57,583 nucleotides of DNA from an uncultured Planctomycetales bacterium (GCA_964620805.1 CAZUJQ010000003.1:1-57583); one strand, 5' to 3'; positions 13,904 to 45,985 are shown, counted from the stretch's first letter. Numbers and translations are program-made. Notes: generated by a model from the letters alone, not told the origin.

Positions 13904-13905
13904 TC

Positions 13906-28119: not shown

Positions 28120-30131
28120 AAGCACTGTCTAAGAAATCTAAGAAGCCCAAACCACCAATGTCAGATCCCATCGATATCGGACAAGAGATTTATGGGCTTA
28201 TGGTTGAGCTTTATCCGATTTGCCGTAGTATCACCGGCGATGGCGTTCGAAAAACGCTGCGCATAATTTCAAAACATATTCCCCTTAAGGTCACAGAAGT
28301 GCCGACCGGGATAAAAGTGTTGGATTGGACCGTACCCAGAGAGTGGAACATTAAGGATGCTTATATTAAAAATTCTAGGGGAGAGAAGATAATAGATTTC
28401 AAGCATTCCAATCTGCATGTTTTGAATTACAGTGTGCCTGTCTCTAAAACGGTAAACCTCGAAGAATTAAAGAAACATATTTTTACTTTGCCCCAATATC
28501 CCGATCGAATACCTTACCGGACGTCCTATTATCAGGAGAATTGGGGCTTTTGTATGACTCACCATCAGTTCCAGCAATTAAAAGAGGATACGTATAAAGT
28601 TGTGATCGACTCAGAGCTAAAAGAAGGGAGCCTTACCTTTGGTGAGTTCTTTCTTGAGGGGAATTCAAAAGAAGAAATCTTGTTTTCCTGTTATCTTTGC
28701 CATCCCTCTTTGTGCAATGACAATTTAAGCGGAATTGTCCTTTTGACATTCTTGGCCAAATCCCTTTTAGGGCATTCTTTAAAATATTCGTATCGGTTTT
28801 TGTTTATTCCGGAGACAATCGGCTCTATTACGTGGTTGAGTTTAAATGAAGAAAGGGTCGAAAATATCAAAGGTGGATTAGTCGCAACCTGTGTGGGTGA
28901 TCCCGGTTCAATGACCTACAAGAAAAGCCGCAAAGCAAATACCTTGATTGATAAGACGGTGGAAAAAGCCCTGATTGATTTAAAAGATCCCTATAAAATC
29001 ATCGACTTTTTTCCATCGGGAAGCGATGAGCGTCAATTCTGTTCTCCGGGTTTTAATTTGCCGATCGGTTCATTGATGAGGACCCCCTACGGGCAGTTTT
29101 CTCAATATCATACTTCGGCCGATAATTTAGATTTTGTAGAGCCTCAATATTTAGGCGATTCCTTTAAAAAATATGAAGCGGTCGTTTCAATCTTAGAAAA
29201 AGATAGTACCTACCTTAATCTTAATCCTAAATGCGAGCCTCAATTGGGAAAGCGGGGACTTTACAGTATGATCAGCGGATTTGGTGAGGACGGAGCCAGG
29301 GAGGTAGCTATGCTCTGGGTTCTTAATCTTTCCGATGGAAACCACTCCCTCTTAGATATTGCTATCCGTTCACAATTGCCTTTTGAACGGATTAGAGAGG
29401 CGGCCGACGCCTTATTGAAAAGCGGTCTATTAAAAATCGCACTAACCACACAGAAAGAAGATTTTACTCCGATGTCCCCATGTCCATCTCAGGCGGATGA
29501 AGCAGCGGTGGATCGGAGTTTCCCGACCGAAGCATCGGGGAACCGCGAAACAAAAGAGGCCATGGACGATAGCCCACGGAGCTTCACCTTAAGGCAGGCG
29601 CGGAAGAATGACTGCAAGGATTTATGGGTTTGGCGCAATCACCCTGAGGTCAGAAAGTGGTGTTTTAATAAAGAGGGAATCCCCTATGGGCAGCATAAAA
29701 CATGGTTTGAAGGGATATCAAAAAACGGCAAAACAACGATATTTATCATACAAGGGAAGGATAAGGAAAAGCTCGGCCAAGTGAGGTTCGATGGTGTCGG
29801 TTCTGAAAAGGCTCTCATCAATATCAATCTTAATCCGAAATTTTTTAACAGAGGAATCGGGACGCGCGCGATTCAAATGGCGACAAGAATTTTTTTAGAG
29901 TCCACCCCGGCAGTTAAAGAAATTATTGCCGAGATTTTTAAACAGAATGCCGTTTCAAAGCGAGCTTTTCAAAAAGCGGAATATTTAAAGCTAAGAAGTG
30001 AAGTCAAAAACAACGAGAAAATAGAGATTTTTTCCTTTAAGCGTAGCCTTAAAGTTCCTGAAAATGCAAGTGAAAAATCAAACCGATATATTTATGAAAA
30101 AAGAGGGCAATGCCTGGTTTCAGAGAAATAA
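28101..30131 (+). CDS. DUF4910 (DUF2172 + M28-like + HTH) protein fused to PseH-like GNAT acetyltransferase
   Basis: YPICRSITGDGVRKT, WTVPREW, YRTSYYQENWGFC, CHPSLCNDNLSG, SDERQFCSPG, YHTSAD, CEPQLGKRGLY; then LRQARKNDCKDLWVWRNHPEVR..HKTWF..IGTR..NAVSKRAF. True start may be ATG 28158. Confidence 0.82.
   Translation: MGNLQLKALSKKSKKPKPPMSDPIDIGQEIYGLMVELYPICRSITGDGVRKTLRIISKHIPLKVTEVPTGIKVLDWTVPREWNIKDAYIKNSRGEKIIDFKHSNLHVLNYSVPVSKTVNLEELKKHIFTLPQYPDRIPYRTSYYQENWGFCMTHHQFQQLKEDTYKVVIDSELKEGSLTFGEFFLEGNSKEEILFSCYLCHPSLCNDNLSGIVLLTFLAKSLLGHSLKYSYRFLFIPETIGSITWLSLNEERVENIKGGLVATCVGDPGSMTYKKSRKANTLIDKTVEKALIDLKDPYKIIDFFPSGSDERQFCSPGFNLPIGSLMRTPYGQFSQYHTSADNLDFVEPQYLGDSFKKYEAVVSILEKDSTYLNLNPKCEPQLGKRGLYSMISGFGEDGAREVAMLWVLNLSDGNHSLLDIAIRSQLPFERIREAADALLKSGLLKIALTTQKEDFTPMSPCPSQADEAAVDRSFPTEASGNRETKEAMDDSPRSFTLRQARKNDCKDLWVWRNHPEVRKWCFNKEGIPYGQHKTWFEGISKNGKTTIFIIQGKDKEKLGQVRFDGVGSEKALININLNPKFFNRGIGTRAIQMATRIFLESTPAVKEIIAEIFKQNAVSKRAFQKAEYLKLRSEVKNNEKIEIFSFKRSLKVPENASEKSNRYIYEKRGQCLVSEK
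29483..29543. repeat. Two short palindromes inside the DUF4910-GNAT linker
   Basis: TCCATC-TCA-GGCGGA (29483-29497, imperfect) and GTTTCCCGA-CCGAAGCA-TCGGGGAAC (29518-29543, 9-bp stem with one G-U). Confidence 0.5.
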
Positions 30132-30771: not shown

Positions 30772-32733
30772 ATGCAAGTTATAGTCCTAGAGTTCCTTGA
30801 TGAGGCTAAAGCCTTTATAAAAAAATACGGCCAAAATTTTTTAAAAGAAAAGAATGTCCTAATCGTCTCTCTCCATCCTAAAGTGAGCGCTTATTTAAAA
30901 AAACAAAATATCGCTTTCCGCGATACGGTTGAATATTTAAATAATGCGGCCCAGCATGATATCCTTTTGAAAACCGAAGAATTGACTATGCAGATTTTGC
31001 CGAAATTATCCCTGACCGACCATTATGGCTTAACCAAGACCTACGAAGAGACCTGTATTTACCATTTACGTTTTTATATGAGCCATTTTTTATGGATCAT
31101 AGAGATATTAAACGCTGTTGGTTGCCAGCATCGCGTTGAAAAAATCTATTGTTCTTTACCGAATAATCGGCAAAAAATGTATACAAACAATGTGCTCCTA
31201 CAGGACAGGGAGCGGTTTTTAGGTTTTTTGGCCAAAGATTTTTGTCGATTAAGAGGAATCGTTTTTGAGGGTTTACCGCAAAGACATCCGTTGCTTAAAG
31301 ATTTTTTTGTTTTCTTGGCAACAAAAACCGTTCGTACGATCGGCAAAATATTAACGTGGATCGATTATCAATTTTTAACTCGCCAGGAAAAGAAAACGGT
31401 TATTGTCCCGGCGCTTTCTTATCGGATGGATGCATTGCTCAAAGAGATTCAGCAAATCGTTCCTGATGTCCGAAGCGTTATGGTTTGGGAGGGAAAATCT
31501 ACGCTTAAGCAGGAATTGTACAGGATATATTTGGTTTTGGATAATTGGCTTAAGAAATTAAGAAAGAAAAATCCCATCGATGGTATAATCTCGCTCGATT
31601 TGATTAATGGCCGATTTAAAGCCGATCAAAAACTTCAAAATGAAATGGCCAGCGAGTTTGATAAAATCTCTGATTTTATTATTTCCTCGGGTCAACAGCA
31701 GTTTACCTATAAAGGGGTATTCTTCGGCCGGTATCTGACGGAAAAAATCGAACGAGGCTTAAAGGAGGAAATCTTGTCCCTGCAACATATGGGTAAGATC
31801 TTAATTGAAGTTTTCAACCGATTAAAGCCCCAGCTTTTGATGTCGATGTACAGTAATGGGATTTATTTTGCGATGGGAGAGATTGCTCGCTATCTGGGCT
31901 TTTGTTCCTTGTCTATTAGCCACGGAACCCATGTGCCGCCCAACAACAGATTTGAAGAAATCGAGAATTATCGGCTATCCAAAAGCGTTATTTTAAATGA
32001 CTACGAATTTGTGGCCGTTCAAACACCATGGGCCAATAGATTTCTTGATTATTACGGGGATAAAAGAGAGCGTCTCTTTTCTGGCCCCTTGCTATACACA
32101 CAAAAAAATAAGGCGATAGGACAGAAGATAAGAAACAAAATTGTCAACGGCAATGAAAATATGAGAATCATTGTCCATGCCACGACACAGAAAACCCGCG
32201 GTGGCATGCGCTTTCATATCGCAGAAACTTTAGATGAATATCTTTCGACACTTTCCGATATTATCCATGCGATCAACGAATGGCTAGAGAGTTATCTGGT
32301 CGTCCGACCTCATCCGGCCTGTGATTTAACCGAAGAGGAATATCGACTTCTTTTGCCTGAATGCCGGCGGATGAGCATCCTCAATAAAGGCAATTTCTCG
32401 AAAGTGTTATCGGTGGCTGACCTTTTGGTTAGTTATTCTTCGACCTGCATAGAAGAGGCCGTTCAAAACGATATTCCGGTTGTCCTTTTTGATAAATGGA
32501 AACGGTACAACCATTTTAATTTAGAAGAAGTTTTAGGGTCGGGATCGCTTGAACAGAAGCCAGCCTATTATTTAACCGAACCTTGCCTTCTTAAGGAGGT
32601 CATGCAGAAAATATTTGAGCTCCGGCAAAATAAAGAATTTAGTAAAGAAGATAGGGCTTATCGATATAAGCCTGAGGCGCGTTTAAATTTTTTGCATTTT
32701 GTGGAAAAGCGTTTAAATGGGAGCCATGATTAA
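30772..32733 (+). CDS. Large orphan surface-carbohydrate protein, probable GT-B-fold transferase
   Basis: SISHG, VVRPHP, ADLLVSYSSTCIEEAVQNDIPVV resemble C-termini of CDP-glycerophosphate/ulosonate transferases. Confidence 0.55.
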   Translation: MQVIVLEFLDEAKAFIKKYGQNFLKEKNVLIVSLHPKVSAYLKKQNIAFRDTVEYLNNAAQHDILLKTEELTMQILPKLSLTDHYGLTKTYEETCIYHLRFYMSHFLWIIEILNAVGCQHRVEKIYCSLPNNRQKMYTNNVLLQDRERFLGFLAKDFCRLRGIVFEGLPQRHPLLKDFFVFLATKTVRTIGKILTWIDYQFLTRQEKKTVIVPALSYRMDALLKEIQQIVPDVRSVMVWEGKSTLKQELYRIYLVLDNWLKKLRKKNPIDGIISLDLINGRFKADQKLQNEMASEFDKISDFIISSGQQQFTYKGVFFGRYLTEKIERGLKEEILSLQHMGKILIEVFNRLKPQLLMSMYSNGIYFAMGEIARYLGFCSLSISHGTHVPPNNRFEEIENYRLSKSVILNDYEFVAVQTPWANRFLDYYGDKRERLFSGPLLYTQKNKAIGQKIRNKIVNGNENMRIIVHATTQKTRGGMRFHIAETLDEYLSTLSDIIHAINEWLESYLVVRPHPACDLTEEEYRLLLPECRRMSILNKGNFSKVLSVADLLVSYSSTCIEEAVQNDIPVVLFDKWKRYNHFNLEEVLGSGSLEQKPAYYLTEPCLLKEVMQKIFELRQNKEFSKEDRAYRYKPEARLNFLHFVEKRLNGSHD

Positions 32734-33479
32734 TGAATACGGTTTTAATTATGGCCAAAGAGGGAAGTTTAGGTCTGCCAGGTAAAAATATCTGGAGAAT
32801 CAAGGGCCGTACGCTCTTGGGCTGGACGATTTATGATGCCCAGCGTTCAAAGCTGGTCGATAAGATTTTTGTCAGCACTAACGGCGAAAAGATCGCCAAA
32901 GTCGCCCAAAAGGCCGGGGCAGATGTGATAGGACGCGATAGCGAACTTGCTAAAAATGAAAAATTTTTGGAAGCGGTTGATCAAGCAGTAACCTATATTA
33001 AGAATAAATATCCCGACCTGGAAATTATTGCCATTCCGCAGTGTGTTGTCCCGTTTCGCGATCCCGATATTTTTGACAGATGCATTAACTTCTTAAGAGA
33101 GAATAAGGATTACGATTCAGCGGTTACGATCCGAAGGATTCCTTTTATTCCTGGCGCCATTATGAAGAAAGAGGATGGACAGCTTCTGCCGTATTTTCCC
33201 GAATTGCAGCAATCCGTTTCGGGTTCACGCCAAGATAGCGAAGGTCATGAAATCGATCATGCGGTTGAGTGTTTTACGTATAAGTCATGGTTAAATCGTG
33301 AAAAAGGGACCAAGCCGTGGAATTACTTGGGTCGTAAGATAAAAGGTATTGAACAAAATTTTCATAATCCTAACTGTTTTGTGGACGTGCATACGCTCGA
33401 TGATATCGAATGGCTGAAATTTATCGTGAAAAATCTGGGATATTCGGGGATGAAAAGAAAGGCGAAGCCCGGCCATTAA
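32733..33479 (+). CDS. Acylneuraminate cytidylyltransferase family protein (NeuA-like, divergent)
   Basis: IMAKEGSLGLPGKNI, IFVSTN, PFRDP, VDVHTLDD. Confidence 0.72.
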   Translation: MNTVLIMAKEGSLGLPGKNIWRIKGRTLLGWTIYDAQRSKLVDKIFVSTNGEKIAKVAQKAGADVIGRDSELAKNEKFLEAVDQAVTYIKNKYPDLEIIAIPQCVVPFRDPDIFDRCINFLRENKDYDSAVTIRRIPFIPGAIMKKEDGQLLPYFPELQQSVSGSRQDSEGHEIDHAVECFTYKSWLNREKGTKPWNYLGRKIKGIEQNFHNPNCFVDVHTLDDIEWLKFIVKNLGYSGMKRKAKPGH

Positions 33480-34151
33480 ATGATCAAAGTGATTATTTTT
33501 GATTTTGACGGAGTGATCTTGGAATCGGTGGATATCAAAACAGCCGCCTTTGTGGATCTTTTTAAGGATTTCCCTGAACATCTGGACGAAATCAAAGAGT
33601 ACCATCTTTTAAATGGCGGTATTTCGCGCCAGAGAAAATTTTGTCACATCTATAAAAACATTTTGAAAAAACCGTTGAGTGAAAAAAAAATCAATGAACT
33701 CTGCCGAAAATTCCGCAAGCTTGTGATAGACAAGGTTGTGGCAGCCGATTTTGTGGGCGGCGCGCAAGAGTTCCTTCAGAAGAACGCTGGCCATTTTGAG
33801 ATGTTTGTCGCTTCCGGCACGCCCCAGGAAGAGATCGAAGAGGTCGTCCAAAGCAAGGGCTTAATAAAATATTTTGCCGGTGTGTACGGTTCTCCCAAAA
33901 CAAAAGATAAAATCGTCAGCGATATTATGAAAAAAGACCGTTTTAAGCAGGAAGAGGTCCTTTTTGTGGGTGATTCGATAACGGATTTAAATGCTGCCAA
34001 AGAAACCGGTGTCCATTTTGTAGCACGTGTGAGTGTCGAAACATTCTTTTGGCTCAAAGACCCGGCGGTTTTTGCGGTGATCCCGACTTTATCAAGGCTG
34101 GATGCCGTTTTGGAAGATTTGAATAAGGAGGATATCCTTGCGAGAGAATAG
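33480..34151 (+). CDS. HAD-superfamily hydrolase (subfamily IA)
   Basis: FDFDGVILES, VASGTP, FVGDSITD. Confidence 0.85.
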   Translation: MIKVIIFDFDGVILESVDIKTAAFVDLFKDFPEHLDEIKEYHLLNGGISRQRKFCHIYKNILKKPLSEKKINELCRKFRKLVIDKVVAADFVGGAQEFLQKNAGHFEMFVASGTPQEEIEEVVQSKGLIKYFAGVYGSPKTKDKIVSDIMKKDRFKQEEVLFVGDSITDLNAAKETGVHFVARVSVETFFWLKDPAVFAVIPTLSRLDAVLEDLNKEDILARE

Positions 34152-34911
34152 CCTGAAAAGAAAATTAAACCGCAAAAAAGCAGTTTTAGGCGGATGGATC
34201 ACAATCGGCAATGAAATTATCGTTGAGACGATGGCCAAGATGCCGTTGGATTTTGTCGTTGTCGATATGGAACACAGCGCCATTGAATTGCCGCAGGCAC
34301 AAAATCTAATACGCATTGTTGATCTTGTCGGGAATGTTCCTCTGGTGCGTGTGGGTGAAAATGACCCGGCCTTGATTAAGCGGGTAATGGATGCGGGCGC
34401 CTACGGCGTTATTATTCCTATGATCAATAATAAATCGGATGCGGTCAAAGCGGTGGAAGCGGTGCGTTATCCGCCTTTGGGCAGACGGGGTGTGGGTTTA
34501 GCGCGGGCTCAGGGTTACGGGATTTCTTTTGAAAAGTATAAAAGATCACTGGCCTCTCAAAGCGTTGTGATCCTTCAGATCGAACATATCGATGCGGTCA
34601 GAAATTTAAAAAGTATTTTAAGTGTCGATGGCGTGGATGGTTTTATCGTAGGGCCATATGATTTGTCGGGTTCAATGGGCCGGCCGGGGGAATTTTCGCA
34701 TCCCTCGGTCAAAGAGGCGCTTGTCGCAGTGATGCGAGTGGCGAAAGAGATGAAAGCGATCGCAGGCATCCATGTGATCCCCCCTGATCCGAATGAAGTC
34801 AAATTGCGATTAAAGCAAGGCTATTCGTTGATCGCGTTTAGTTTGGATACGCTTGTTTTTCAAAGAAGCTATGAAAAATATTTAAAGGATATCAACCTAA
34901 GAAGAAAATAG
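34138..34911 (+). CDS. HpcH/HpaI class II pyruvate aldolase
   Basis: TTG start; VVDMEHS, LVRV, MDAGAYGVIIP, QIEH, VGPYDLSGSMG. Confidence 0.87.
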   Translation: MRENSLKRKLNRKKAVLGGWITIGNEIIVETMAKMPLDFVVVDMEHSAIELPQAQNLIRIVDLVGNVPLVRVGENDPALIKRVMDAGAYGVIIPMINNKSDAVKAVEAVRYPPLGRRGVGLARAQGYGISFEKYKRSLASQSVVILQIEHIDAVRNLKSILSVDGVDGFIVGPYDLSGSMGRPGEFSHPSVKEALVAVMRVAKEMKAIAGIHVIPPDPNEVKLRLKQGYSLIAFSLDTLVFQRSYEKYLKDINLRRK

Positions 34912-35679
34912 ATGAGAGTCATTGCTGTGATTCCGGCCCGGATGGGTTCGTGGAGGTTTCCGGGAAAACCTTTATGCGATATTTGTGGTGTTACGATGAT
35001 CGAACATGTCTATAAAAGGACCGCCTTGAGCAAAATCCTCGATGAAGTTTATGTTGCGACCTGCAATGAAGAGATCAAGCAGGTTGGGGAAGGTTTTGGC
35101 GGCAAAGTCATCATGACACCCGATACCTTTAACCGTTGCACGGATCGGGTTGCTTACGCCATTAAAAAAATCAAATCCAAAGCCGACATTGTTGTATTGA
35201 TTCAGGGTGATGAGCCGCTTGTGCATCCGCAGATGATCGATACGGCTGTTAAACCGCTTTTGAAAGATCAAGATTTGGTCTGCTCCTGCTTGATTAAAAA
35301 AATTGAAACCGACGAAGAATTTGAAGACAAGAATGAGATCAAGGTCGTTAAGGACAAAAATAATTTTGCTTTGTACTTTTCACGCGAACCGATTCCTTCC
35401 GCGAAACTTTCGATGAGCCCCTTTGACCGTTATAAGCAGGTTTGTATTATGCCGTATCGCACGAAATTTCTTCTAAAATTCCCAAGTCTGCCGCAAACAC
35501 CGCTGGAAACGGTTGAGTCGGTGGATATGATGCGGATCTTGGAGTACGGTTACCGCATTAAGCTCATTGAAAGCCATTTTAAGACCTACAGCGTTGATGT
35601 GCCGGCGGATCAGAAAAAAGTGATTGAAGTGATGAAAAACGATCCGCTGTTCCCAAAATACAAAAACGACAGACGATGA
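34912..35679 (+). CDS. kdsB: 3-deoxy-manno-octulosonate cytidylyltransferase-like protein
   Basis: IPARMGSWRFPGKPL, IQGDEPL, ALYFSREPIP, LETVESVDMMRILE, SVD. Confidence 0.75.
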   Translation: MRVIAVIPARMGSWRFPGKPLCDICGVTMIEHVYKRTALSKILDEVYVATCNEEIKQVGEGFGGKVIMTPDTFNRCTDRVAYAIKKIKSKADIVVLIQGDEPLVHPQMIDTAVKPLLKDQDLVCSCLIKKIETDEEFEDKNEIKVVKDKNNFALYFSREPIPSAKLSMSPFDRYKQVCIMPYRTKFLLKFPSLPQTPLETVESVDMMRILEYGYRIKLIESHFKTYSVDVPADQKKVIEVMKNDPLFPKYKNDRR

Positions 35680-36638
35680 AGACACTGGTAACCTTAAGCA
35701 CATTTGCTCAATACAGCGAAGTGCCTTTAAAACGGCTTAAAGAAAAAGGTTTTGAGGTTATCACGAATCCTTATGGGCGTAAACTCACGGTCGAAGAAAG
35801 TTTTAAATTGTACACGCCCGATATTGACGCGGTCATCGCCGGGACCGAAGAGATATCATCCGAAATCATAAGCAAGGCTGATTCTTTAAAGGTGATTTCC
35901 CGCTGTGGGATCGGCTTAGACAATGTGGATTTGGCCGCCGCCCGAAAGAAGAAGATCAAGCTTTTTACAACCGGGGCTCACGTCATCGATGCGGTGGCGG
36001 AATTGACGGCCGGTCTTATTTTGGATTCTGTGCGTTTCGTTTCGCAGGCCGACCGTGCCGTAAGAGAGGAACGCTGGCATCGGCCGATGGGTTACCTTTT
36101 GCGTGGAAAAATTTTAGGCGTGATCGGTTTGGGGCAGGTCGGGAAAAGGCTGATTGAATTGATGAATAGTTTCGGCGTTAACCCCATCGCCTATGATCTT
36201 TCGCGAGACCAAAGATTTGCCGCCAAATACAAAGTCAAATATGTCTCTCTGGTTAAGCTTCTCAGCCATTCGGATATTGTCAGTATCCATCTGCCTTTAA
36301 ACGGCGGCACGCGAAATCTGATTAATGCAAAGACATTAAGCCAGATGAAAAAGGATGCTTTTTTCATCAATACGGCCCGCGGTGAAATCGTTGATGAACA
36401 GGCCCTCTACGAAGCTTTAAAGAACAAAAAAATCGCCGGAGCAGCTCTGGATGTCTTTGCGCAAGAGCCCTACAGTGGCCCGTTGAAAGAGTTGGATAAC
36501 ATTATTTTGACAACACACATCGGTTCGTATGCTCGCGAGGCGCGGATCAATATGGAATTGGAGGCAGTTGAAAATTTAATCCAAGTGTTAAATGGCTATC
36601 ATCCCCGGAGAAAATATAAGAGAGGAGTCATTTTATGA
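35676..36638 (+). CDS. D-isomer-specific 2-hydroxyacid dehydrogenase (phosphoglycerate dehydrogenase-like)
   Basis: ISRCGIGLDNVD, GVIGLGQVG, INTARG, LDVFAQEP, TTHIG. Confidence 0.85.
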   Translation: MKTLVTLSTFAQYSEVPLKRLKEKGFEVITNPYGRKLTVEESFKLYTPDIDAVIAGTEEISSEIISKADSLKVISRCGIGLDNVDLAAARKKKIKLFTTGAHVIDAVAELTAGLILDSVRFVSQADRAVREERWHRPMGYLLRGKILGVIGLGQVGKRLIELMNSFGVNPIAYDLSRDQRFAAKYKVKYVSLVKLLSHSDIVSIHLPLNGGTRNLINAKTLSQMKKDAFFINTARGEIVDEQALYEALKNKKIAGAALDVFAQEPYSGPLKELDNIILTTHIGSYAREARINMELEAVENLIQVLNGYHPRRKYKRGVIL

Positions 36639-37534
36639 AAGTAGTCATTTTTGGCGGTAGCGGGTTTTTGGGCAGTCATGTGGCAGACGTTTTATCATCG
36701 CAAAATCATGAGGTGACTATTTTTGATTTGCGCCCCTCATCTTATTTAAAACCCGAACAGGAAATGATCATCGGTGATATCCTGGACCTCGATGCAGTTA
36801 AAACAGTTACCAAGGGGGCGGAGGTCGTCTATAATTTTGCCGGAATCGCCGATATCAACGAGGCAAAATTCAATGCCTATAAGACGATCAATTCCAATGT
36901 GATGGGGACCGTGAATTTGCTTGAGGGTTGCTGTCGAAATAACATTAAGCGCTTTATTTTTGCCAGCACGGTTTATGTTTACAGCGAGGCGGGATCTTTT
37001 TATCGTGCCAGCAAGCAGGCCTGCGAACTTTTAATCGAATCTTATCACAAGCAGCACAATATTGATTTTACCATTTTGCGTTACGGCTCCTTATACGGCC
37101 CCCGCTCAGATGAAACAAATTGGATTCATAAAATCCTGAAACAAGCGCTTATAGAGAAAAAAATCGTGCGTAAAGGCGATGGAGAAGAAATCCGCGAATA
37201 TATCCATGTGTTGGACGCGGCGCGGCTTAGCGTCAAAATCCTTTCGGAGGAATTTAAAAATCAGTATGTCATCATCACCGGACAGCAACCTATTCAGATT
37301 AAAAACCTCATGATTATGGTTCAGGAGATGCTTAATAACGAGATCGATCTGGAATTTCTTAAAGAGAATTATGAAGAGCATTATGAGATTACCCCATATA
37401 ATTTCCGGCCGAAGCTCGCCAAAAGGATCGTTGATTCGAGCTATGTCGATTTAGGACAGGGAATTCTTGAGCTGTTAAATGTCATGTATGATAAGAAATC
37501 CGGTATACAAGAGCAGAAGCTGAAGTCTGTTTAA
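36635..37534 (+). CDS. NAD-dependent epimerase/dehydratase
   Basis: GGSGFLG, FAST, YRASK, LRYGSLYGP. Confidence 0.85.
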   Translation: MKVVIFGGSGFLGSHVADVLSSQNHEVTIFDLRPSSYLKPEQEMIIGDILDLDAVKTVTKGAEVVYNFAGIADINEAKFNAYKTINSNVMGTVNLLEGCCRNNIKRFIFASTVYVYSEAGSFYRASKQACELLIESYHKQHNIDFTILRYGSLYGPRSDETNWIHKILKQALIEKKIVRKGDGEEIREYIHVLDAARLSVKILSEEFKNQYVIITGQQPIQIKNLMIMVQEMLNNEIDLEFLKENYEEHYEITPYNFRPKLAKRIVDSSYVDLGQGILELLNVMYDKKSGIQEQKLKSV

Positions 37535-37546
37535 AAAGGAGCGGTT

Positions 37547-39541
37547 TTGAGTAAAAATATTCTGTTAGTTCTCTCGGAAAAAGATAATGCCCCATCTTTG
37601 TTAAGGAAAATTCTGCAGCAGAATACCAATAAGGTTTTTTTGTGTCCGATTGACTATCGAGCGTCTAGGCTTGCCGAAAGATTAAATAAATCTATCAATG
37701 AGAAAAAGCCTGGAAATGCAGAGCTTGTGGACTTTGTGGGCAAGTTCAATCAAGAGGCTTATCAGCTTAAAGGTGAATATATCAATTTTATCTATGACCT
37801 TGGTGAAAAAGAGTTAATTAATGGAAAGAATTTAAAAGAATATTTTGCTTATCCCAAAGAAAATTTCTCTGTGTGGTGGTTTTCGCTCATTGCCGAAAGA
37901 AATCCCTATAAAAGTTCCAGTTTTATCTTTTTTACGAAGATCAATACGATCCTGAAGTTAAAAAAGGAATTGAGTTGCCAGGAGATTTGGATCAGTAAAA
38001 ACAGCCGCCTTGTCTATGACGTATTATCAAAACTTAAGTTGCAGGGTGTCGTGTCAGGGTCTTCCAACAATCGGTTTCTTGATGGATTCATCACGGCAAA
38101 AGTCCTATTGATTGAGCTGCCGCGTGTTTTAAGGTTTATTTTGGCTTCCTTTGTAGAAACCATTGCTCTCAAAAAAATGAAAGCTGAATTTAAATGCCAC
38201 AAAGAAGCTATTAAAAATTGCGACTTAGCTCTATTGACAACATTTCCCTTGATTGATCAGAAAAAACTTAAACAGGGGAAATTTGTTAATCTTGCTTATG
38301 GGTCATTGCAGGATGCCATCGAACAAAGCCATAACAAAAAGAAGATAGCCTGGTTTGGAATCTTTGCTTCTGTCAATTCTTTAAAATGGCCTCAGGTTCT
38401 TCCGATCACACGAAAAATAAAAAAAATTGAACGATTTTTCTTAGTGGATGAATGGTTGAGTTTAAAAGATTTAGGCAGGATTGTATCGACATACTTTTTT
38501 TTAGCGTTTCGGTGTTTAAGGTATCTTGGCCGCTACAGGGCACAATTTTATTACCGTGAAGCCACATTGGGGGCTAACCTCAATCTCTGGCCTATCTTTG
38601 CGAGAGATTTTCTTTCTTCATTTTGTGGAAAAGTTCTTATCTGGGGGCTAAGCGATTATTGGAAATTTTCAAATATTACACAAGAGTTGCTGCCAAAAAC
38701 AAAAATACTTTATTTCGCAGAATTGCATGGGTGGGAAAAGGCCTTGAATGTGGCCTGCGCGCAAAGGAAAGATGTTGTCTGCGTCGGCCTGCAGCATGCC
38801 TCCATCTCTTCTTTGTGGCTTAATTATTTTAATCATCCAACGGATCTATCAGGAAGCGATTATGTTCGTTATACTCCCACGCCCAATTATTTAGGATGTG
38901 TTGGATCGATTGCCCGCAATATTTTTCTGGAAAACGGTTGGCCTCGCGAAAAAATATTTATCTTAGGTGGGTTTCGATTTCCCAGCCTTAAAAAAACATC
39001 TTCGATGACATCTGTGTCACAGAAAAAAAATCAGATTGTGGTTGCCTTGTCTTTATCGCCGGTTGCTAATAAGGAAATACTATTATTTATTTACGATGCT
39101 TTTTATAATAAAAATTACAGTTTTGATATTCTTTTTAAGTGTCACCCCATTGATCCCTTAGAGAAAGTAGCCCAAAAGATAGGGCTAGATATGACCGGAA
39201 ATTTAAGATTTACAAATCAGAGTTTGGATGAAGTGGTTGCCGAATCCCGGGCTATGATCGTCAAGGAATCTTCCTCAGTTTTTTGGGCTATTAATCACAA
39301 TATTCCGATTATCGTTCCGTATCTGTACAGCTTTGTGGATATCTGTCCGCTATCGGAGGTGAGTCATTTAGCCCACTACGTGGCAACTCCGGCCGAATTA
39401 TTTGACGTTGCCTATGAGATTATGCAAGATAAAAAAGAGATTAATAAGACAGAATATCGGGAATTTTTTAATCGGTATATAGAAATTTATCAAACAGACG
39501 AACGGTATTACGAAAATCTCATGTCGGCGATCAATTCGTAA
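37547..39541 (+). CDS. Large orphan surface-carbohydrate protein, probable GT-B-fold transferase (reminiscent of the LIC13510/TIGR04326 family)
   Basis: TTG start; SVWWFSLIAERNP, GLQH, FKCHP, SSSVFWAINHNIP. Family assignment from memory, not a search. Confidence 0.55.
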   Translation: MSKNILLVLSEKDNAPSLLRKILQQNTNKVFLCPIDYRASRLAERLNKSINEKKPGNAELVDFVGKFNQEAYQLKGEYINFIYDLGEKELINGKNLKEYFAYPKENFSVWWFSLIAERNPYKSSSFIFFTKINTILKLKKELSCQEIWISKNSRLVYDVLSKLKLQGVVSGSSNNRFLDGFITAKVLLIELPRVLRFILASFVETIALKKMKAEFKCHKEAIKNCDLALLTTFPLIDQKKLKQGKFVNLAYGSLQDAIEQSHNKKKIAWFGIFASVNSLKWPQVLPITRKIKKIERFFLVDEWLSLKDLGRIVSTYFFLAFRCLRYLGRYRAQFYYREATLGANLNLWPIFARDFLSSFCGKVLIWGLSDYWKFSNITQELLPKTKILYFAELHGWEKALNVACAQRKDVVCVGLQHASISSLWLNYFNHPTDLSGSDYVRYTPTPNYLGCVGSIARNIFLENGWPREKIFILGGFRFPSLKKTSSMTSVSQKKNQIVVALSLSPVANKEILLFIYDAFYNKNYSFDILFKCHPIDPLEKVAQKIGLDMTGNLRFTNQSLDEVVAESRAMIVKESSSVFWAINHNIPIIVPYLYSFVDICPLSEVSHLAHYVATPAELFDVAYEIMQDKKEINKTEYREFFNRYIEIYQTDERYYENLMSAINS

Positions 39542-39563: not shown

Positions 39564-41252
39564 ATGATTTATCTCTATGTTCTCATTTATGCTTTGCTAT
39601 TGTGTTACCTGCGGTTTTCGGGCGTAAGCCACGTAGCCTACATGCCGATTTTTTCTTTGTTTGAAGATCCGACCTACTATCCGAATGACATTTATGTGCA
39701 TCATTCTCTGGTCGCCGGCAGCAGTTATTTATATCCCCTGCTAAGTATTTTGGGCCCCCTTGCCTCCAATACGTATTTTATCTTTCTGCTGCATACCGCA
39801 GCCAATCTCATCAATGTCTTTTTCATCTTTAAAATCGTCGAACTCTTGTTCCCAAATCTTAGAAAATATGACATCGGTCTGATTGCTTTATTGTTGTTTC
39901 TATACGATTATCCTATTTTTATGGCTTATTCCCAGATTGTCTTACAATTCAGTTTTTCCCAAACTACCATCGCCATGCCGATTCTTTCGGCGAGTCTTTA
40001 TTATTTTCTGAAGGGTAAATTGCTTACGGCCGTTTTTTTATCGGGCGTGTTGGCAGCCCCACTCCATTTTAAGTCGGCATGGTTCATTTTCTTGATGATT
40101 GTAACCTTCATTATTTTTTCTTATAAAAAATTAAGCTCTAAAAAAACTTTAGTAGCCTTTTTTTTAAGCGGTATAGTTGTTTTAATTATGTCTTTATACC
40201 GCGGGGCGCATACAGGAAATGGCGTGCTCACTTTTTCTCAGCTTTTGGAGATGTGCGAAGGGATTAATAAAAGGGATTTAAATGAGATTGTTGTTTTGAT
40301 GAATCCCTGGTGGGATTTTGTTAAATTATTTTTGGTCTTTTTTGGCGGCTGGAAGTGTGTTTCATTTGTTGAGGATGTGGGTCAGCGCTTTAAACTTTCT
40401 TTTTTTTATGTGTTATCGTTGGCGGTTTTCGCTTTTGGTACGATTTATACTTCATATTTTTATAAAGTTGTTCCTATTCCGGAAGTGCTTTTATTAAGCT
40501 TTCCGCGGATGATGGCTCTCCCTTTGATTATTTCGATTATTTTGATTGGCGGGGCCTTGTTAACCTTATTTATTCGCTACGGAAAAAATGCCCACCTGCG
40601 ATGGCTCGTCATTTTTGCTTTGTTTGTTTTTGCTTATTTTCCAAATTTTAAGAAATCGATTGTTATATATCTAGTATGTATTGCTGTCGCTTATGTCCTT
40701 GTTTATCGTAGCCAAAAGATTCCTTTTAAAATGGGATTAAAGCCTTTAACCGCCTTTATGTATTCGGCGGTCTTCCTGTTTCTTATGGTCAGGGCCGGCG
40801 GCATGGTTTTAAAATCTTATAAGGAAAAAGCCCCGTTTTTTCCTCTGACCGTTTTTAACCTAGAAAGACCATTTTATGATGCCGAACTATGGGCGAAAGA
40901 GCACACTCCCAAAGATAGTGTTTTTCTCTGCTTTAAAGAAGGCAGCATATTTTATCACGAACATGGATTTAGAAGATTTTCCGGCCGAACGATGCTTTTC
41001 GGCGACTATAATAGTTTTTATTTAAATTATGATTTGATTCAAGAGCATAAAAAAAGAGAACTCTTCAGAGAAAATCTTATGAGACTGATCCAAGGTGGAA
41101 ATAAGGCAGAAATCATTCAGTTCATTGCTAAGATACCCTGGCGGCTGGATTATATTATGCTGTCGAATAAATATTCCTTGCCGTATCCTACTGTTTATTT
41201 TAATGAAGAATATACCTGCTATTGGGTCGGACACAAAGATGGATCATCTTGA
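39564..41252 (+). CDS. Polytopic membrane protein (GT-C-like/unknown)
   Basis: About a dozen hydrophobic segments, then a soluble C-terminal domain (WAKEHTPKDSVF..FRRFSGR). Confidence 0.65.
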   Translation: MIYLYVLIYALLLCYLRFSGVSHVAYMPIFSLFEDPTYYPNDIYVHHSLVAGSSYLYPLLSILGPLASNTYFIFLLHTAANLINVFFIFKIVELLFPNLRKYDIGLIALLLFLYDYPIFMAYSQIVLQFSFSQTTIAMPILSASLYYFLKGKLLTAVFLSGVLAAPLHFKSAWFIFLMIVTFIIFSYKKLSSKKTLVAFFLSGIVVLIMSLYRGAHTGNGVLTFSQLLEMCEGINKRDLNEIVVLMNPWWDFVKLFLVFFGGWKCVSFVEDVGQRFKLSFFYVLSLAVFAFGTIYTSYFYKVVPIPEVLLLSFPRMMALPLIISIILIGGALLTLFIRYGKNAHLRWLVIFALFVFAYFPNFKKSIVIYLVCIAVAYVLVYRSQKIPFKMGLKPLTAFMYSAVFLFLMVRAGGMVLKSYKEKAPFFPLTVFNLERPFYDAELWAKEHTPKDSVFLCFKEGSIFYHEHGFRRFSGRTMLFGDYNSFYLNYDLIQEHKKRELFRENLMRLIQGGNKAEIIQFIAKIPWRLDYIMLSNKYSLPYPTVYFNEEYTCYWVGHKDGSS

Positions 41253-42168
41253 ATACACAGATTGTAACCTTTGTCATTCAAATGACTATGCGATTATTTA
41301 TAAGAGCGGCCATTCGGATAATGGCGGCATGGTCCCTCAGCGCTATCTATGCACGGAGATCAATAAAGGAGATTTTGGGACCGTTGTTCAATGCCGCCAG
41401 TGCGGTCTTATGTACAACAACCCACGGTTAAAACCGCAAGTGGCCAAAGAACTTTATGTCAATTCCGCAGACCCTTTGTATGTTAAGGAGCAAAAACAAC
41501 GTATTGAAAGCTTTCGTAGAACTGCACGGGAATGCGAAAAAATTAAAAGCGGCGGCAACCTGTTGGATATCGGGAGTTTTTACGGGTTTTTCTTGGAAGC
41601 TGCTTCTAAAGAGAAATGGCAAAGGTACGGTGTGGAACTTAGCAAAAACGCCATTTTTTATACAAGAAAACATTTTGGAATAGATGTTTTTGAAGGGGAT
41701 TTATTTGCGGCTCACTATCCCGACAGGCATTTTGACCTTGTCACCATGTGGGATGTTATTGAACATCTTCATAATCCCAAAGAGACATTGCTGGAGATCA
41801 ATCGAGTGCTTAAAGATGACGGGCTTTTGGCCCTTGTGACTCCTAATATTAATAGCTTTATGGCAAGAATTTTTAAGGATCAATGGTGGTTTCTAGTGCC
41901 ATCGCATATTTACTACTTTACGCCCCGTACGATAGGAAAGATGCTTAATGAGGCAGGTTTTAAGATGATAAGAAAGGGAACTTATGGCAGGAGCTTCACC
42001 TTATCCTATTGGGCCACAAAGATTGAACCTTACAACCGCCGTATATACGGAATGATTGATAAGGTCATTCGTTCCCTGAAAATGGGACAGTGGCCCTTGA
42101 ATCTTAATCTGGGGGATCATATGCTAGTATTTGCTCAGAAGAAAACAACCAAAGGAAAGGACAGCTGA
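41239..42168 (+). CDS. Class I SAM-dependent methyltransferase with N-terminal Cys motifs
   Basis: CNLC..CRQCG; LLDIGSFYG; FDLVTMWDVIEH; start moved to ATG 41239. Confidence 0.85.
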   Translation: MDHLEYTDCNLCHSNDYAIIYKSGHSDNGGMVPQRYLCTEINKGDFGTVVQCRQCGLMYNNPRLKPQVAKELYVNSADPLYVKEQKQRIESFRRTARECEKIKSGGNLLDIGSFYGFFLEAASKEKWQRYGVELSKNAIFYTRKHFGIDVFEGDLFAAHYPDRHFDLVTMWDVIEHLHNPKETLLEINRVLKDDGLLALVTPNINSFMARIFKDQWWFLVPSHIYYFTPRTIGKMLNEAGFKMIRKGTYGRSFTLSYWATKIEPYNRRIYGMIDKVIRSLKMGQWPLNLNLGDHMLVFAQKKTTKGKDS

Positions 42169-44906: not shown

Positions 44907-45985
44907 TGAATACAAACCCTAAAATTAGTGTGGTCATGACTGTTTTTAATGGCGAAAGCCACCTCCGGGAGGCTATCGATAGCATTTTGAATCAGACCTT
45001 TAGGGATTTTGAATTCATCATTGTCGATAATGATAGTACCGATAAAACAGGTGAAATTATATGTTCCTATAGGGATCCGCGCATTGTTTATGTTAAAAAT
45101 ACAAAGAATGTGGGGCAAAGCAAAGCCCTGAATATCGGTATCCGTCGTAGCAGGGGAGATTTTATCGCGCGGATGGACGCTGACGATATTTCTTATCCCG
45201 AGCGGCTAGAAAAACAGTATCAATATTTGCTTAGTCATGATTCCATTGCTGTGGTGGGGGCTCAATATCTGGCGATTGATGAGGAGGGCAAGACCATCCT
45301 TCGATTCCGTCTACCAACGGACCCTTTCGAGATTAGATGTTATTTGATCGGAGTCAGTGAATTATCTTATCAATGCGTGCCGCATCCGATTGTCTTAATA
45401 AGAAAAAAAGCGCTTTTTGACGTTGGCTTGTATAATGAAGAAATTATTACCCAGGATTATGATTTGTGGGTGAGGATGTCACGCAAATATTTTTTTTCGA
45501 ATTTGAAGGAAATATTATTTAAATACCGAGTCCGAAAAAATGCCCAAACTCAAAAATCCAAAGGCATCTTTAGACAAGATTGCGCCAAGATGATTATGGA
45601 TAATATCAAATACTACTGGCCGCAGTTAAGCGATGAGGAATCAAAGATTTTATGGAGGATGTTGAATTTTTGGCCTCAAGCTTCAAAAGGAGATAGCGCT
45701 TTAATTTTTGGACTCTTTGGTGCATTTTTTGATAAGGTGATGAATTCACACGTTATAGACAGCCGGATGAATAAGATTAAAAATCGCATGAAGATGTACT
45801 ACATCCCACAGCTTTTTTTGAGTTCTCGTGCCTTTGCTATCCGAACAGCCATCAAAATCATCTCTTCTCAGCCTTCCTTGTTGTGGGATGTAAAAATGTA
45901 CGCCAAGATCGTAAAAACCTATCTGCACAGAAGAGATGCAGCCGTTTGCTTGAGCGTAGAAAGATCCGCAAACCCATGTTCCTAA
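44894..45985 (+). CDS. GT2 family glycosyltransferase
   Basis: ISVVMTVFNGE, IVDNDSTD, ARMDADD, QDYDLWVR. Confidence 0.87.
   Translation: MRSLVNTNPKISVVMTVFNGESHLREAIDSILNQTFRDFEFIIVDNDSTDKTGEIICSYRDPRIVYVKNTKNVGQSKALNIGIRRSRGDFIARMDADDISYPERLEKQYQYLLSHDSIAVVGAQYLAIDEEGKTILRFRLPTDPFEIRCYLIGVSELSYQCVPHPIVLIRKKALFDVGLYNEEIITQDYDLWVRMSRKYFFSNLKEILFKYRVRKNAQTQKSKGIFRQDCAKMIMDNIKYYWPQLSDEESKILWRMLNFWPQASKGDSALIFGLFGAFFDKVMNSHVIDSRMNKIKNRMKMYYIPQLFLSSRAFAIRTAIKIISSQPSLLWDVKMYAKIVKTYLHRRDAAVCLSVERSANPCS

What the first reader, a model, noticed from the sequence alone, without database searches (positions are those of the whole stretch)
32733..37534. Second ulosonate-like module built on a class II pyruvate aldolase instead of a PEP synthase
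Seen: NeuA-like, HAD, HpcH aldolase, KdsB-like, 2-hydroxyacid dehydrogenase and epimerase genes, all coupled, with no kdsA or kdsD and only one NeuB in the window. Established: HpcH aldolases condense pyruvate with aldehydes to give 3-deoxy-2-keto acids, the substrate class of KdsB. Inference: an uncharacterised route to a short CMP-3-deoxy-ulosonic or ulosaric acid.
Basis: partly seen in the sequence, partly recalled or inferred. Interest (0 to 1): 0.62.

Follow-up and report, generated by a model that had tools for sequence, protein, structure and literature searches.

The report
Aldolase-based acidic sugar pathway
This is a real, tightly linked gene cassette, widespread in bacteria and archaea but never studied, that most likely builds, CMP-activates and transfers an unknown acidic keto-sugar using a metal-dependent aldolase where known pathways use a PEP-dependent synthase.

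Summary
Six translationally coupled genes at 32733-37534 encode a NeuA-like cytidylyltransferase, a HAD phosphatase, an HpcH/HpaI class II aldolase, a KdsB-like cytidylyltransferase, a D-2-hydroxyacid dehydrogenase and an extended SDR. The window has no kdsA or kdsD and one NeuB, 19 kb upstream.

A survey of 85 loci shows a conserved cassette: aldolase (the search query, so present in all) plus a PF02348 cytidylyltransferase (nearly all), 2-HADH (70), SDR (61) and HAD (53). A GT-B protein, the next gene at 37547-39541, occurs in 50 loci. The NeuA-like gene is not core (8/84).

The aldolase keeps all catalytic residues but has an invariant His where relatives have the Leu that touches the donor's C3. 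The KdsB-like clade keeps CTP/Mg residues but has lost two Kdo-contacting residues, His and Tyr. The 2-HADH lacks the PGDH Arg that I recall binds the substrate phosphate.

Best reading (about 0.6): an uncharacterised, NeuB/KdsA-independent route to a CMP-activated 2-ulosonic acid that is not Kdo. Chain length, donor (pyruvate or hydroxypyruvate) and acceptor are unresolved, so "short" and "3-deoxy" are unsupported. Main rival: it makes a 3-deoxy-aldonic acyl side chain, as on Treponema denticola flagellin. I found no paper describing the cassette. It is a new variant of a known kind.

The parts
34138..34911 (+). HpcH/HpaI-family class II (metal-dependent) 2-oxoacid aldolase. Proposed C-C bond-forming 'synthase' of the pathway.
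   Evidence: PF03328, 109 bits. Below every NCBIfam equivalog cutoff: HpaI 176 vs 369, GarL 154 vs 407, RhmA 132 vs 441. Catalytic H46, R71, E149 and D175 match HpaI H45, R70, E149 and D175 in 85/85 clade members. Clade-invariant H212 replaces the conserved donor-pocket Leu. Y174 and S179 are also invariant (85/85) and H150 nearly so (82/85).
34912..35679 (+). KdsB-like CMP-ulosonate synthetase (cytidylyltransferase) of a distinct clade. Proposed to activate the aldolase-derived sugar acid.
   Evidence: PF02348, 168 bits. NF009905, 292 bits (cutoff 255). TIGR00466 kdsB, 147 bits (cutoff 155). Best PDB match is KpsU 1gq9. R10, R15, K19, Q98, D100 and D229 are kept. KdsB H181 is Gln in 65/67, Y185 is Ile or Met in 65/67, and 'LEQLR' is 'VDMLR'. 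Adjacent to the aldolase in most loci.
33480..34151 (+). HAD-IA phosphatase (the gene caller's alternative start is 33519). Proposed to dephosphorylate a phosphorylated precursor or the aldol product, in the role of KdsC or Kdn-9-P phosphatase.
   Evidence: HAD_2, 77 bits. Weak similarity to phosphoglycolate phosphatase and the beta-PGM family. DFDGV nucleophile motif. Found in 53/84 loci, usually as HADH-SDR-[cyclase]-HAD. Most type II loci without a HAD carry an AroB-like phosphate-eliminating enzyme.
35676..36638 (+). D-2-hydroxyacid dehydrogenase. Role unresolved: either makes a 2-oxoacid donor such as hydroxypyruvate, or reduces a 2-oxo group.
   Evidence: 2-Hacid_dh_C, 193 bits. Closest PDB entry is the short PGDH 1wwk, 201 bits. 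Catalytic R235, E264 and H281 are kept. The PGDH 'VRS' Arg is Gly56 (93%) and the following Lys is Glu58 (91%); its phosphate-binding role is recalled, not tested. Found in 70/84 loci.
36635..37534 (+). Extended SDR (GalE-like epimerase/dehydrogenase). Tailoring or precursor step; substrate unknown.
   Evidence: PF01370, 154 bits. Best PDB relatives are 6dnt (103 bits), deposited under a generic epimerase/dehydratase name, and 3ehe, named a UDP-glucose 4-epimerase. GGSGFLG and Y123xxxK127 motifs. Found in 61/84 loci.
37547..39541 (+). TIGR04326-like GT-B protein. Candidate dedicated transferase for the CMP-sugar.
   Evidence: TIGR04326, 184 bits (cutoff 250). jackhmmer finds homologues in 50/85 module loci, including the divergent neighbour of the Nitrosomonas operon. 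AF2 model pLDDT 91.9. Foldseek places it in the GT-B fold: Tps1, UDP-GlcNAc 2-epimerases, TagF/TarL. H533 is invariant; K531 (43/46) and R477 (45/46) nearly so. H533 is followed by P or T, and [S/T]575-S576 lies 42 residues later.
41095..42168 (+). Methyltransf_23 SAM methyltransferase. Accessory: probable methylation of the sugar acid.
   Evidence: Pfam, 97 bits. Homologues sit between or beside the aldolase and the cytidylyltransferase in about 24 loci.
32733..33479 (+). NeuA-like cytidylyltransferase. Coupled in this window but not part of the conserved module. More likely serves the NeuB-derived nonulosonic acid, together with the upstream 653-aa protein.
   Evidence: CTP_transf_3, 57 bits, N-terminal part only. 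PDB relatives are CMP-Neu5Ac synthetases. Present in only 8/84 module loci.
30772..32733 (+). 653-aa GT-B-like protein (weak LIC12162/TIGR04396 match), coupled to the NeuA-like gene. Candidate second CMP-sugar transferase.
   Evidence: Weak matches to Epimerase_2, DUF6716 and TIGR04396 and to PF27859. Carries H515-P516 and S556-S557 with the same spacing as the motif in the 664-aa protein. No homologue found in the other module loci.

Best explanation
The region encodes a self-contained 'make, activate, transfer' cassette for an acidic keto-sugar.

Inferred steps:
1. The class II aldolase joins a 2-oxoacid donor to an aldehyde, probably an aldose or aldose phosphate. The donor is pyruvate or hydroxypyruvate. 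The product is a 4-hydroxy-2-oxo sugar acid, that is, a 2-ulosonic acid.
2. The HAD phosphatase removes a phosphate from a precursor or from the aldol product.
3. The KdsB-like enzyme couples the sugar's anomeric C2-OH to CMP using CTP.
4. The GT-B protein encoded next door transfers the sugar to a surface glycan.
5. The 2-hydroxyacid dehydrogenase and the SDR are conserved helpers whose steps are not resolved. They may supply the donor (D-glycerate to hydroxypyruvate) and adjust stereochemistry or oxidation state.
6. A methyltransferase is an optional tailoring enzyme.

The aldolase thus takes the place that PEP-dependent KdsA, NeuB, PseI or LegI hold in every characterised CMP-ulosonic acid pathway.

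Shown here: gene content, coupling, conservation of the cassette across domains, intact catalytic residues, altered substrate-contact residues, and the GT-B fold.

Inferred: every chemical step and the identity of the sugar.
For: - Family assignments and operon coupling are firm.
- The cassette recurs in 85 loci from Omnitrophota, Planctomycetes, Nitrospirales, Desulfobacterota, Dehalococcoidia, Patescibacteria, Nitrosomonadaceae, Syntrophomonas, Bacteroidota and archaea including Methanoperedens, Methanoregula, Hadarchaeum and Thermoplasmatales.
- A PF02348 cytidylyltransferase is the aldolase's most constant neighbour. It is KdsB-like in most loci and PseF- or NeuA-like in others.
- All aldolase catalytic residues are kept in 85/85 members.
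- The cytidylyltransferase keeps CTP/Mg residues but has replaced the Kdo-contact His and Tyr (KdsB contacts from PMC12199768).
- A GT-B protein is conserved in 50/85 loci.
- Maf-type (PF01973) proteins and a YhcH/sialate-anomerase-like protein occur in related loci.
- Compact stand-alone operons exist with no NeuB within 10-12 kb. Examples are Nitrosomonas marina, next to an O-antigen-ligase-like gene, and an Acuticoccus plasmid.
- This window carries three cytidylyltransferases, so a second CMP-sugar is expected.
Against: - There is no biochemical evidence for any step, and no glycan structure is known from any host.
- The 2-HADH has no obvious role in a simple KdsA/KdsC/KdsB-like scheme. 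If it reduces the 2-oxo group, the product could not be cytidylylated at C2.
- The source of the aldehyde acceptor is unknown.
- NeuB co-occurrence (14/84 within 10 kb) is a lower bound. In this very window NeuB lies 19 kb away, so independence from nonulosonic acid pathways is not proven for most loci.
- The GT-B protein matches no specific transferase family. Its HP/SS-like motif is a resemblance recalled from memory.
Confidence: 0.6

Rival explanations
1. The module makes a 3-deoxy-aldonic acid side chain, not a glycosyl donor. The aldolase joins pyruvate to glyceraldehyde or its 3-phosphate. The 2-HADH reduces C2. The methyltransferase O-methylates it and the HAD removes the phosphate. The acid is then attached as an N-acyl group to the NeuB-derived nonulosonic acid. 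The cytidylyltransferase would then simply be that sugar's CMP-synthetase.
For: - Treponema denticola flagellin carries a nonulosonic acid with a 2-methoxy-4,5,6-trihydroxyhexanoyl group (PMC13439194).
- That acyl group is exactly what aldolase + 2-oxoacid reductase + O-methyltransferase would give.
- This reading gives the 2-HADH and the methyltransferase clear roles.
- The window is a nonulosonic acid island rich in acyl-modification genes.
- Hexapeptide acyltransferases are frequent neighbours.
Against: - No carboxylate-activating enzyme (ATP-grasp, adenylating ligase, ACP) is part of the conserved set.
- The most constant partner is a dedicated cytidylyltransferase clade that comes in addition to other cytidylyltransferases in the same loci.
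- The conserved 664-aa partner has a GT-B fold, not an amide-ligase fold.
- Stand-alone operons exist with no NeuB within 10-12 kb.
- The methyltransferase is present in only about a quarter of loci.
- I could not check whether T. denticola carries this cassette, because the original paper is not held.
Confidence: 0.17
2. It is an alternative route to ordinary CMP-Kdo. The aldolase makes Kdo or Kdo-8-P from pyruvate and arabinose or arabinose-5-P. The HAD acts as KdsC and the KdsB-like enzyme as KdsB.
For: - The cytidylyltransferase passes the NCBIfam 'KdsB' subfamily cutoff.
- Its closest solved relatives are all CMP-Kdo synthetases.
- The window has no kdsA, kdsC or kdsD.
Against: - The Kdo-contacting His181 and Tyr185 and the LEQLR motif are replaced throughout the clade.
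- It scores below the kdsB equivalog cutoff.
- The module occurs in archaea, Dehalococcoidia, Patescibacteria and Syntrophomonas. From general knowledge these lack lipopolysaccharide; this was not tested here.
- This reading gives no role to the 2-HADH or the SDR.
Confidence: 0.04
3. The aldolase is catabolic or used for salvage. It cleaves a 2-keto-3-deoxy sugar acid, as HpaI, GarL and RhmA do, and its position in the glycan cluster is incidental.
For: All characterised close relatives (HpaI, GarL, RhmA/YfaU) are catabolic.
Against: - It is translationally coupled inside a biosynthetic operon.
- The conserved set contains no transporter, kinase, dehydratase or regulator.
- Linkage to a cytidylyltransferase and a GT-B protein persists across more than 80 loci and two domains.
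- It scores far below every catabolic equivalog cutoff.
Confidence: 0.03

Closest known systems
Kdo pathway: KdsD, KdsA, KdsC, KdsB, followed by Kdo transferases
   Same: The logic is the same: condense a C3 unit with an aldose (phosphate), dephosphorylate, activate with CTP through a PF02348 enzyme, then transfer. The cytidylyltransferase here is closest to KpsU and KdsB (143 bits to 1gq9) and keeps all CTP/Mg residues.
   Different: The condensing enzyme is a metal-dependent HpcH aldolase using a 2-oxoacid, not a PEP-dependent KdsA. The HAD is a capped type IA enzyme, not a KdsC-type one. The Kdo-contact residues His181 and Tyr185 are lost. Extra 2-HADH and SDR genes are present. The module occurs in organisms presumed to lack LPS.
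Nonulosonic acid pathways: NeuB/PseI/LegI + NeuA/PseF/LegF, and Kdn-9-P synthase + phosphatase + CMP-Kdn synthetase
   Same: These also give a CMP-activated 2-ulosonic acid for surface glycans and flagellin. Related loci carry Maf-type and sialate-anomerase-like genes. In some loci the cytidylyltransferase is PseF- or NeuA-like.
   Different: The module contains no NeuB-family synthase. No NDP-sugar hydrolase or aminotransferase belongs to the conserved core.
HpcH/HpaI class II aldolases: HpaI, GarL, RhmA/YfaU and the Sphingomonas hydroxyketoacid aldolase SwHKA
   Same: Same fold and family (PF03328). Identical catalytic His, Arg, Glu and Asp. These enzymes are known to add pyruvate or hydroxypyruvate to glycolaldehyde, glyceraldehyde, erythrose and similar aldehydes (PMC7610986, PMC10099721).
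   Different: The known members are catabolic or only used as biocatalysts. This clade is about 33% identical to them and is embedded in glycan biosynthesis. It has an invariant His where they have Leu (Phe in SwHKA) lining the donor's C3, plus invariant Tyr174 and Ser179 and near-invariant His150 (82/85).
Treponema denticola flagellin glycan: nonulosonic acid bearing a 2-methoxy-4,5,6-trihydroxyhexanoyl group
   Same: The acyl group is the reduced, methylated form of a pyruvate + glyceraldehyde aldol product. That matches the aldolase + 2-HADH + methyltransferase content.
   Different: In that glycan the acid is an amide-linked substituent, not a CMP-activated glycosyl donor. The genes responsible were not available to me for comparison.

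Membership tests
HpcH/HpaI class II aldolase family (PF03328) | Pfam match above the gathering score | tested here: met
   109.4 bits against a cutoff of 25.
HpcH/HpaI class II aldolase family (PF03328) | Catalytic His45 and Arg70 and metal ligands Glu149 and Asp175 (HpaI numbering) | tested here: met
   H46, R71, E149 and D175 are present in the window protein and in 85/85 clade members.
HpaI, GarL or RhmA functional equivalogs (catabolic aldolases) | Score above the NCBIfam equivalog cutoff | tested here: not met
   HpaI 176 vs 369, GarL 154 vs 407, RhmA 132 vs 441.
HpaI, GarL or RhmA functional equivalogs (catabolic aldolases) | Conserved Leu lining the donor C3 pocket (HpaI L212, YfaU L216) | tested here: not met
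   His212 in 85/85 members. The role of this position is taken from PMC10099721 and PMC7610986.
KdsB (CMP-Kdo synthetase) | PF02348 fold with CTP- and Mg-binding residues (R10, R15, K19, Q98, D100, D225/235) | tested here: met
   All are conserved in 67/67 module-linked sequences.
KdsB (CMP-Kdo synthetase) | Score above the kdsB equivalog cutoff (TIGR00466) | tested here: not met
   146.9 vs 155.2. It does pass the looser NF009905 subfamily model, 292 vs 255.
KdsB (CMP-Kdo synthetase) | Kdo-contacting His181 and Tyr185 (E. coli numbering) | tested here: not met
   Gln in 65/67 and Ile or Met in 65/67. LEQLR is replaced by VDMLR. The contacts are taken from PMC12199768.
KdsB (CMP-Kdo synthetase) | Genomic or functional partnership with KdsA, KdsC, KdsD and a Kdo transferase | tested here: not met
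   None is present in the 57.6-kb window. The rest of the genome is not available.
D-3-phosphoglycerate dehydrogenase (SerA) | Score above the PGDH equivalog cutoff, and the substrate-site Arg ('VRS' motif; phosphate-binding role recalled, not tested) | tested here: not met
   233.9 vs 454. The Arg is Gly in 93% and the neighbouring Lys is Glu in 91%. The catalytic Arg, Glu and His are kept.
NeuB/PseI/LegI-type nonulosonic acid pathway (as the origin of this module's sugar) | A NeuB-family synthase within the module | tested here: not met
   The only NeuB-like gene is at 14934-15980. NeuB lies within 10 kb of the aldolase in 14/84 loci.
GT-B glycosyltransferase superfamily (664-aa protein, 37547-39541) | Two Rossmann-like domains of the GT-B fold | tested here: met
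   AF2 pLDDT 91.9. Foldseek probability 1.0 to Tps1, UDP-GlcNAc 2-epimerases and TagF/TarL, with target TM-scores of 0.45-0.61.
CMP-sugar-dependent GT-B transferases (sialyl- and Kdo-transferase-like) | HP motif and Ser-Ser motif that bind the CMP phosphate; demonstrated transfer from a CMP donor | tested here: inconclusive
   H533 is invariant and followed by P or T, with [S/T]575-S576 42 residues later. The equivalence to the sialyltransferase motifs rests on my memory. No sialyltransferase appeared among the top 50 structural matches. Activity cannot be tested here.
TIGR04326 surface carbohydrate biosynthesis protein family | Score above the curated cutoff | tested here: not met
   184 vs 250 bits, E = 3.8e-54. 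It is homologous but below the trusted cutoff.

The most novel reading that the evidence does not exclude
The cassette is a third, evolutionarily independent way of making CMP-activated ulosonic acids, alongside the KdsA and NeuB types, and is present in both Bacteria and Archaea. Its aldolase uses hydroxypyruvate, supplied by the co-conserved 2-hydroxyacid dehydrogenase and read by the clade-invariant His212. The product would then be a previously undescribed 3-hydroxy (non-3-deoxy) 2-ulosonic acid, transferred by a new GT-B family (TIGR04326-like).
Probability: 0.22. Interest if true: 0.82.

Novelty: new variant of a known kind. Interest (0 to 1): 0.66.

Why it matters
All characterised routes to CMP-activated ulosonic acids (Kdo, sialic, legionaminic and pseudaminic acids, Kdn) start with a PEP-dependent synthase of the KdsA or NeuB type.

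If this cassette works as proposed, it would matter in several ways:
- Genome mining based on NeuB and KdsA misses a whole class of acidic surface sugars.
- Annotation pipelines currently mislabel its enzymes as KdsB, phosphoglycerate dehydrogenase or HpaI aldolase.
- A new monosaccharide and a new transferase family await description in widespread environmental lineages. These include ammonia oxidisers, syntrophs, candidate phyla and methanogen relatives.
- It would be the first anabolic, glycan-building role that I know of for HpcH aldolases, which are so far valued mainly as biocatalysts.

Several hosts are in pure culture, so the question is directly testable.

Tried and rejected
- **Literature.** Eight of the ten full-text searches combined HpcH or aldolase terms with cytidylyltransferase, ulosonic, nonulosonic, flagellin glycosylation or heptulosaric acid. 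They found no paper describing this cassette (one search failed on syntax).
- **T. denticola.** The original glycan paper (PMC5182079) is not held. I could not check whether that organism carries the cassette.
- **Phosphoglycerate as the 2-HADH substrate.** Unlikely, because the PGDH 'VRS' Arg is missing; that this Arg binds the phosphate is my recollection.
- **6-phosphogluconolactonase as a pathway member.** The gene follows the module only in Nitrosomonadaceae, so it was treated as lineage-specific synteny. A PF04199 'cyclase'/hydrolase in 19 loci across lineages remains unexplained.
- **An apparent aldolase/2-HADH fusion in L050.** It is an artefact of a run of masked bases.
- **The 653-aa protein as a conserved component.** It has no homologue in the other loci.
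- **Other searches.** The phage collection has no relative of the aldolase. The HAD has no PDB sequence relative below 1e-8.
- **Chain length from the cytidylyltransferase pocket.** I could not infer it, because I lack a verified list of all Kdo contacts.

Full report
**The observation**

The window is one long + strand surface-glycan cluster with GC of about 0.41. Their family assignments are correct.
- 32733-33479: a weak, N-terminal-only match to the CMP-ulosonate synthetase family PF02348. Its solved relatives are CMP-Neu5Ac synthetases.
- 33480-34151: a HAD-IA hydrolase with the DFDGV nucleophile motif.
- 34138-34911: an HpcH/HpaI aldolase.
- 34912-35679: a KdsB-like cytidylyltransferase.
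- 35676-36638: a D-2-hydroxyacid dehydrogenase.
- 36635-37534: an extended SDR with GxxGxxG and YxxxK motifs.

Gene junctions abut or overlap by 4-14 nt. Family scans of every ORF of 120 aa or more found no KdsA or KdsD. They found a single NeuB/PseI-like gene, at 14934-15980.

**Is the arrangement meaningful?**

The aldolase has thousands of homologues at 45-65% identity, mostly in uncultured organisms. I fetched four neighbourhoods through exact-protein look-ups and 80 from one genome per species. I then searched the ORFs of these loci with the window's proteins.

Of 84 loci, many cut by contig ends:
- 70 carry the 2-HADH.
- 67 carry the KdsB-like enzyme. Most of the rest carry another PF02348 member beside the aldolase.
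- 61 carry the SDR.
- 53 carry the HAD.
- Only 8 carry the NeuA-like gene.

Typical orders are [cytidylyltransferase]-aldolase-2HADH-SDR-[PF04199 hydrolase]-HAD. A Methyltransf_23 gene is inserted in about 24 loci.

The hosts span many bacterial phyla and several archaeal lineages. Cultured hosts include Nitrosomonas marina, N. mobilis, Nitrosospira briensis, Syntrophomonas wolfei subsp. methylbutyratica and Draconibacterium mangrovi. A plasmid of Acuticoccus sp. I52.16.1 also carries it. There RefSeq names the five genes generically: aldolase/citrate lyase, acylneuraminate cytidylyltransferase family, phosphoglycerate dehydrogenase, HAD, NAD(P) oxidoreductase.

**A further conserved component**

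An iterative search with the 664-aa protein encoded immediately downstream (37547-39541; TIGR04326-like, 184 bits) finds a homologue in 50 of 85 loci. This includes the divergently transcribed gene next to every Nitrosomonadaceae operon. Its AlphaFold model is confident (pLDDT 91.9) and has a GT-B fold. Foldseek gives probability 1.0 to trehalose-6-P synthase, UDP-GlcNAc 2-epimerases and the TagF/TarL polymerases.

Across 46 family members, H533 is invariant, and K531 (43/46) and R477 (45/46) are nearly so. H533 is followed by Pro or Thr, and a [S/T]-S pair lies 42 residues later. From memory, this resembles the HP and Ser-Ser CMP-phosphate-binding motifs of bacterial GT-B sialyltransferases. 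I could not test that equivalence. The upstream 653-aa protein carries HP and SS with the same spacing but is not conserved in other loci.

Maf-type proteins (PF01973) often flank the aldolase.

**Active sites**

*Aldolase.*
- It keeps HpaI's H45, R70, E149 and D175 in 85 of 85 sequences.
- It scores far below the HpaI, GarL and RhmA equivalog cutoffs.
- The clade has an invariant His212 where HpaI and YfaU have the conserved Leu (L212, L216).
- That residue bounds the donor's C3. It is Phe210 in the hydroxypyruvate-using Sphingomonas enzyme (PMC10099721, PMC7610986).
- Tyr174 and Ser179 are also clade-invariant, and His150 nearly so (82/85).

*KdsB-like clade (67 sequences).*
- It keeps R10, R15, K19, Q98, D100 and the second Mg-binding Asp.
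- The Kdo-contacting His181 becomes Gln and Tyr185 becomes Ile or Met.
- LEQLR becomes VDMLR.
- An invariant Glu211 is gained. The contacts are taken from PMC12199768.

*2-HADH.*
- It is closest to the short phosphoglycerate dehydrogenase 1wwk and keeps the catalytic Arg, Glu and His.
- The 'VRS' Arg, which I recall binds the substrate phosphate in PGDH, is Gly in 93% of the clade.
- The neighbouring Lys is Glu in 91%.
- The substrate is therefore probably not 3-phosphoglycerate.

*SDR.* Its nearest solved relatives include archaeal and bacterial UDP-glucose 4-epimerases; the best match, 6dnt, is deposited under a generic epimerase/dehydratase name.

**A second architecture**

About nine loci, including Draconibacterium, pair the same aldolase clade (His212 present), a PseF-like cytidylyltransferase and the 2-HADH with a different set of partners:
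- a GmhA-like isomerase;
- an IolG-like oxidoreductase;
- a KduD/GolD-like SDR;
- a TIGR04425 AroB-related sugar-phosphate phospholyase (459 bits, above cutoff);
- a YhcH/N-acetylneuraminate-anomerase-like protein;
- a Maf-like protein.

Most of these loci lack the HAD and carry a phosphate-eliminating enzyme in its place. Together with the ketose-phosphate isomerase, this suggests the acceptor branch starts from a sugar phosphate. The anomerase-like gene fits a product with a sialic-acid-like anomeric centre.

**Most likely mechanism (confidence about 0.6)**

The aldolase is the C-C bond-forming synthase. It makes a 4-hydroxy-2-oxo sugar acid from a 2-oxoacid donor and an aldose or aldose phosphate. 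The HAD removes a phosphate. The KdsB-like enzyme forms the CMP-sugar. The GT-B protein transfers it. The methyltransferase at 41095-42168 is optional tailoring.

The 2-HADH and SDR are conserved, but their steps are not resolved. Two features of the data make hydroxypyruvate a serious alternative donor to pyruvate. One is the near-constant 2-HADH without the PGDH Arg. The other is the His at the donor-C3 position of the aldolase. With hydroxypyruvate the product would not be 3-deoxy. Nothing here bears on chain length or on an ulosaric acid.

**Rivals**

1. *A 3-deoxy-aldonic acyl side chain (0.17).* The 2-methoxy-4,5,6-trihydroxyhexanoyl group on the T. denticola flagellin nonulosonic acid (PMC13439194) is what aldolase + 2-oxoacid reductase + methyltransferase would make. 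Against it: no carboxylate-activating enzyme is conserved. The dedicated cytidylyltransferase and the GT-B protein are. Stand-alone operons without nearby NeuB exist.
2. *An alternative CMP-Kdo route (0.04).* The lost Kdo contacts and the occurrence in archaea and presumably monoderm bacteria argue against it.
3. *A catabolic aldolase (0.03).* The operon context argues against it.

**Comparison and novelty**

The cassette works like the KdsA/KdsC/KdsB and NeuB/phosphatase/NeuA schemes. It fails the membership tests for KdsB proper, for the catabolic aldolase equivalogs and for SerA. I found no description of it in the literature held. I rate it a new variant of a known kind, with interest 0.66. 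It is widespread, mis-annotated, and directly testable in cultured organisms.

Noticed in passing
window 19299-26058: An acyl-carrier-type modification module: FabG-like SDR, 2-ketoarginine-methyltransferase-like protein, FabH, a 402-aa protein with a FabG domain, a methyltransferase and an FkbH-domain protein (282 bits). From general knowledge, FkbH domains load glyceryl units onto carrier proteins. The module probably makes glyceroyl or O-methylglyceroyl-type N-acyl groups for the NeuB-derived sugar.
   Followed up: no
window 10069-12162: A 697-aa fusion of a PF02348 cytidylyltransferase with a class III aminotransferase. In Syntrophomonas wolfei (L029, 4389-6423) the two halves are separate adjacent genes, next to a short-chain dehydrogenase. 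This is a recurring pair of unknown function.
   Followed up: partly
window 26296-30131: Two paralogous DUF4910/DUF2172 proteins. One is fused to an AAC(3)-like N-acetyltransferase. The other is fused to a winged-helix domain and a PseH-like GNAT. They share 30% identity over 249 aa.
   Followed up: no
window 12188-13903 and 55980-57530 (- strand): Two B12-binding radical SAM enzymes lie in the glycan cluster. The same family recurs beside the aldolase module in about 12 other loci.
   Followed up: no
L084 4383-12970 (Draconibacterium mangrovi); also L002, L011, L027, L035, L066, L078: A second module type built around the same aldolase clade. It contains 2-HADH, an IolG-like oxidoreductase, a GmhA-like isomerase, a KduD-like SDR, a TIGR04425 AroB-related sugar-phosphate phospholyase, a YhcH/sialate-anomerase-like protein, a PseF-like cytidylyltransferase, a Maf-like protein and an arylformamidase-like hydrolase. 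The product is unknown.
   Followed up: partly
L019, L029, L005, L014, L021, L025, L031, L036 and others (19 loci): A PF04199 'putative cyclase' (arylformamidase-like metal hydrolase) is embedded between the SDR or 2-HADH and the HAD in diverse lineages. In Nitrosomonadaceae a 6-phosphogluconolactonase-like gene follows the HAD. Both could be lactonases. Neither is present in the window.
   Followed up: partly
window 39564-41252 and 45883-48054: Two large polytopic membrane proteins (about 10 hydrophobic segments each) with no family match. They may be polymerase, ligase or flippase-type components of the glycan pathway.
   Followed up: no
window 13792-14937: A 381-aa protein with a weak Glyco_tran_28_C match, overlapping the start of NeuB. 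It is probably a PseG-like NDP-sugar hydrolase of the nonulosonic acid pathway.
   Followed up: no
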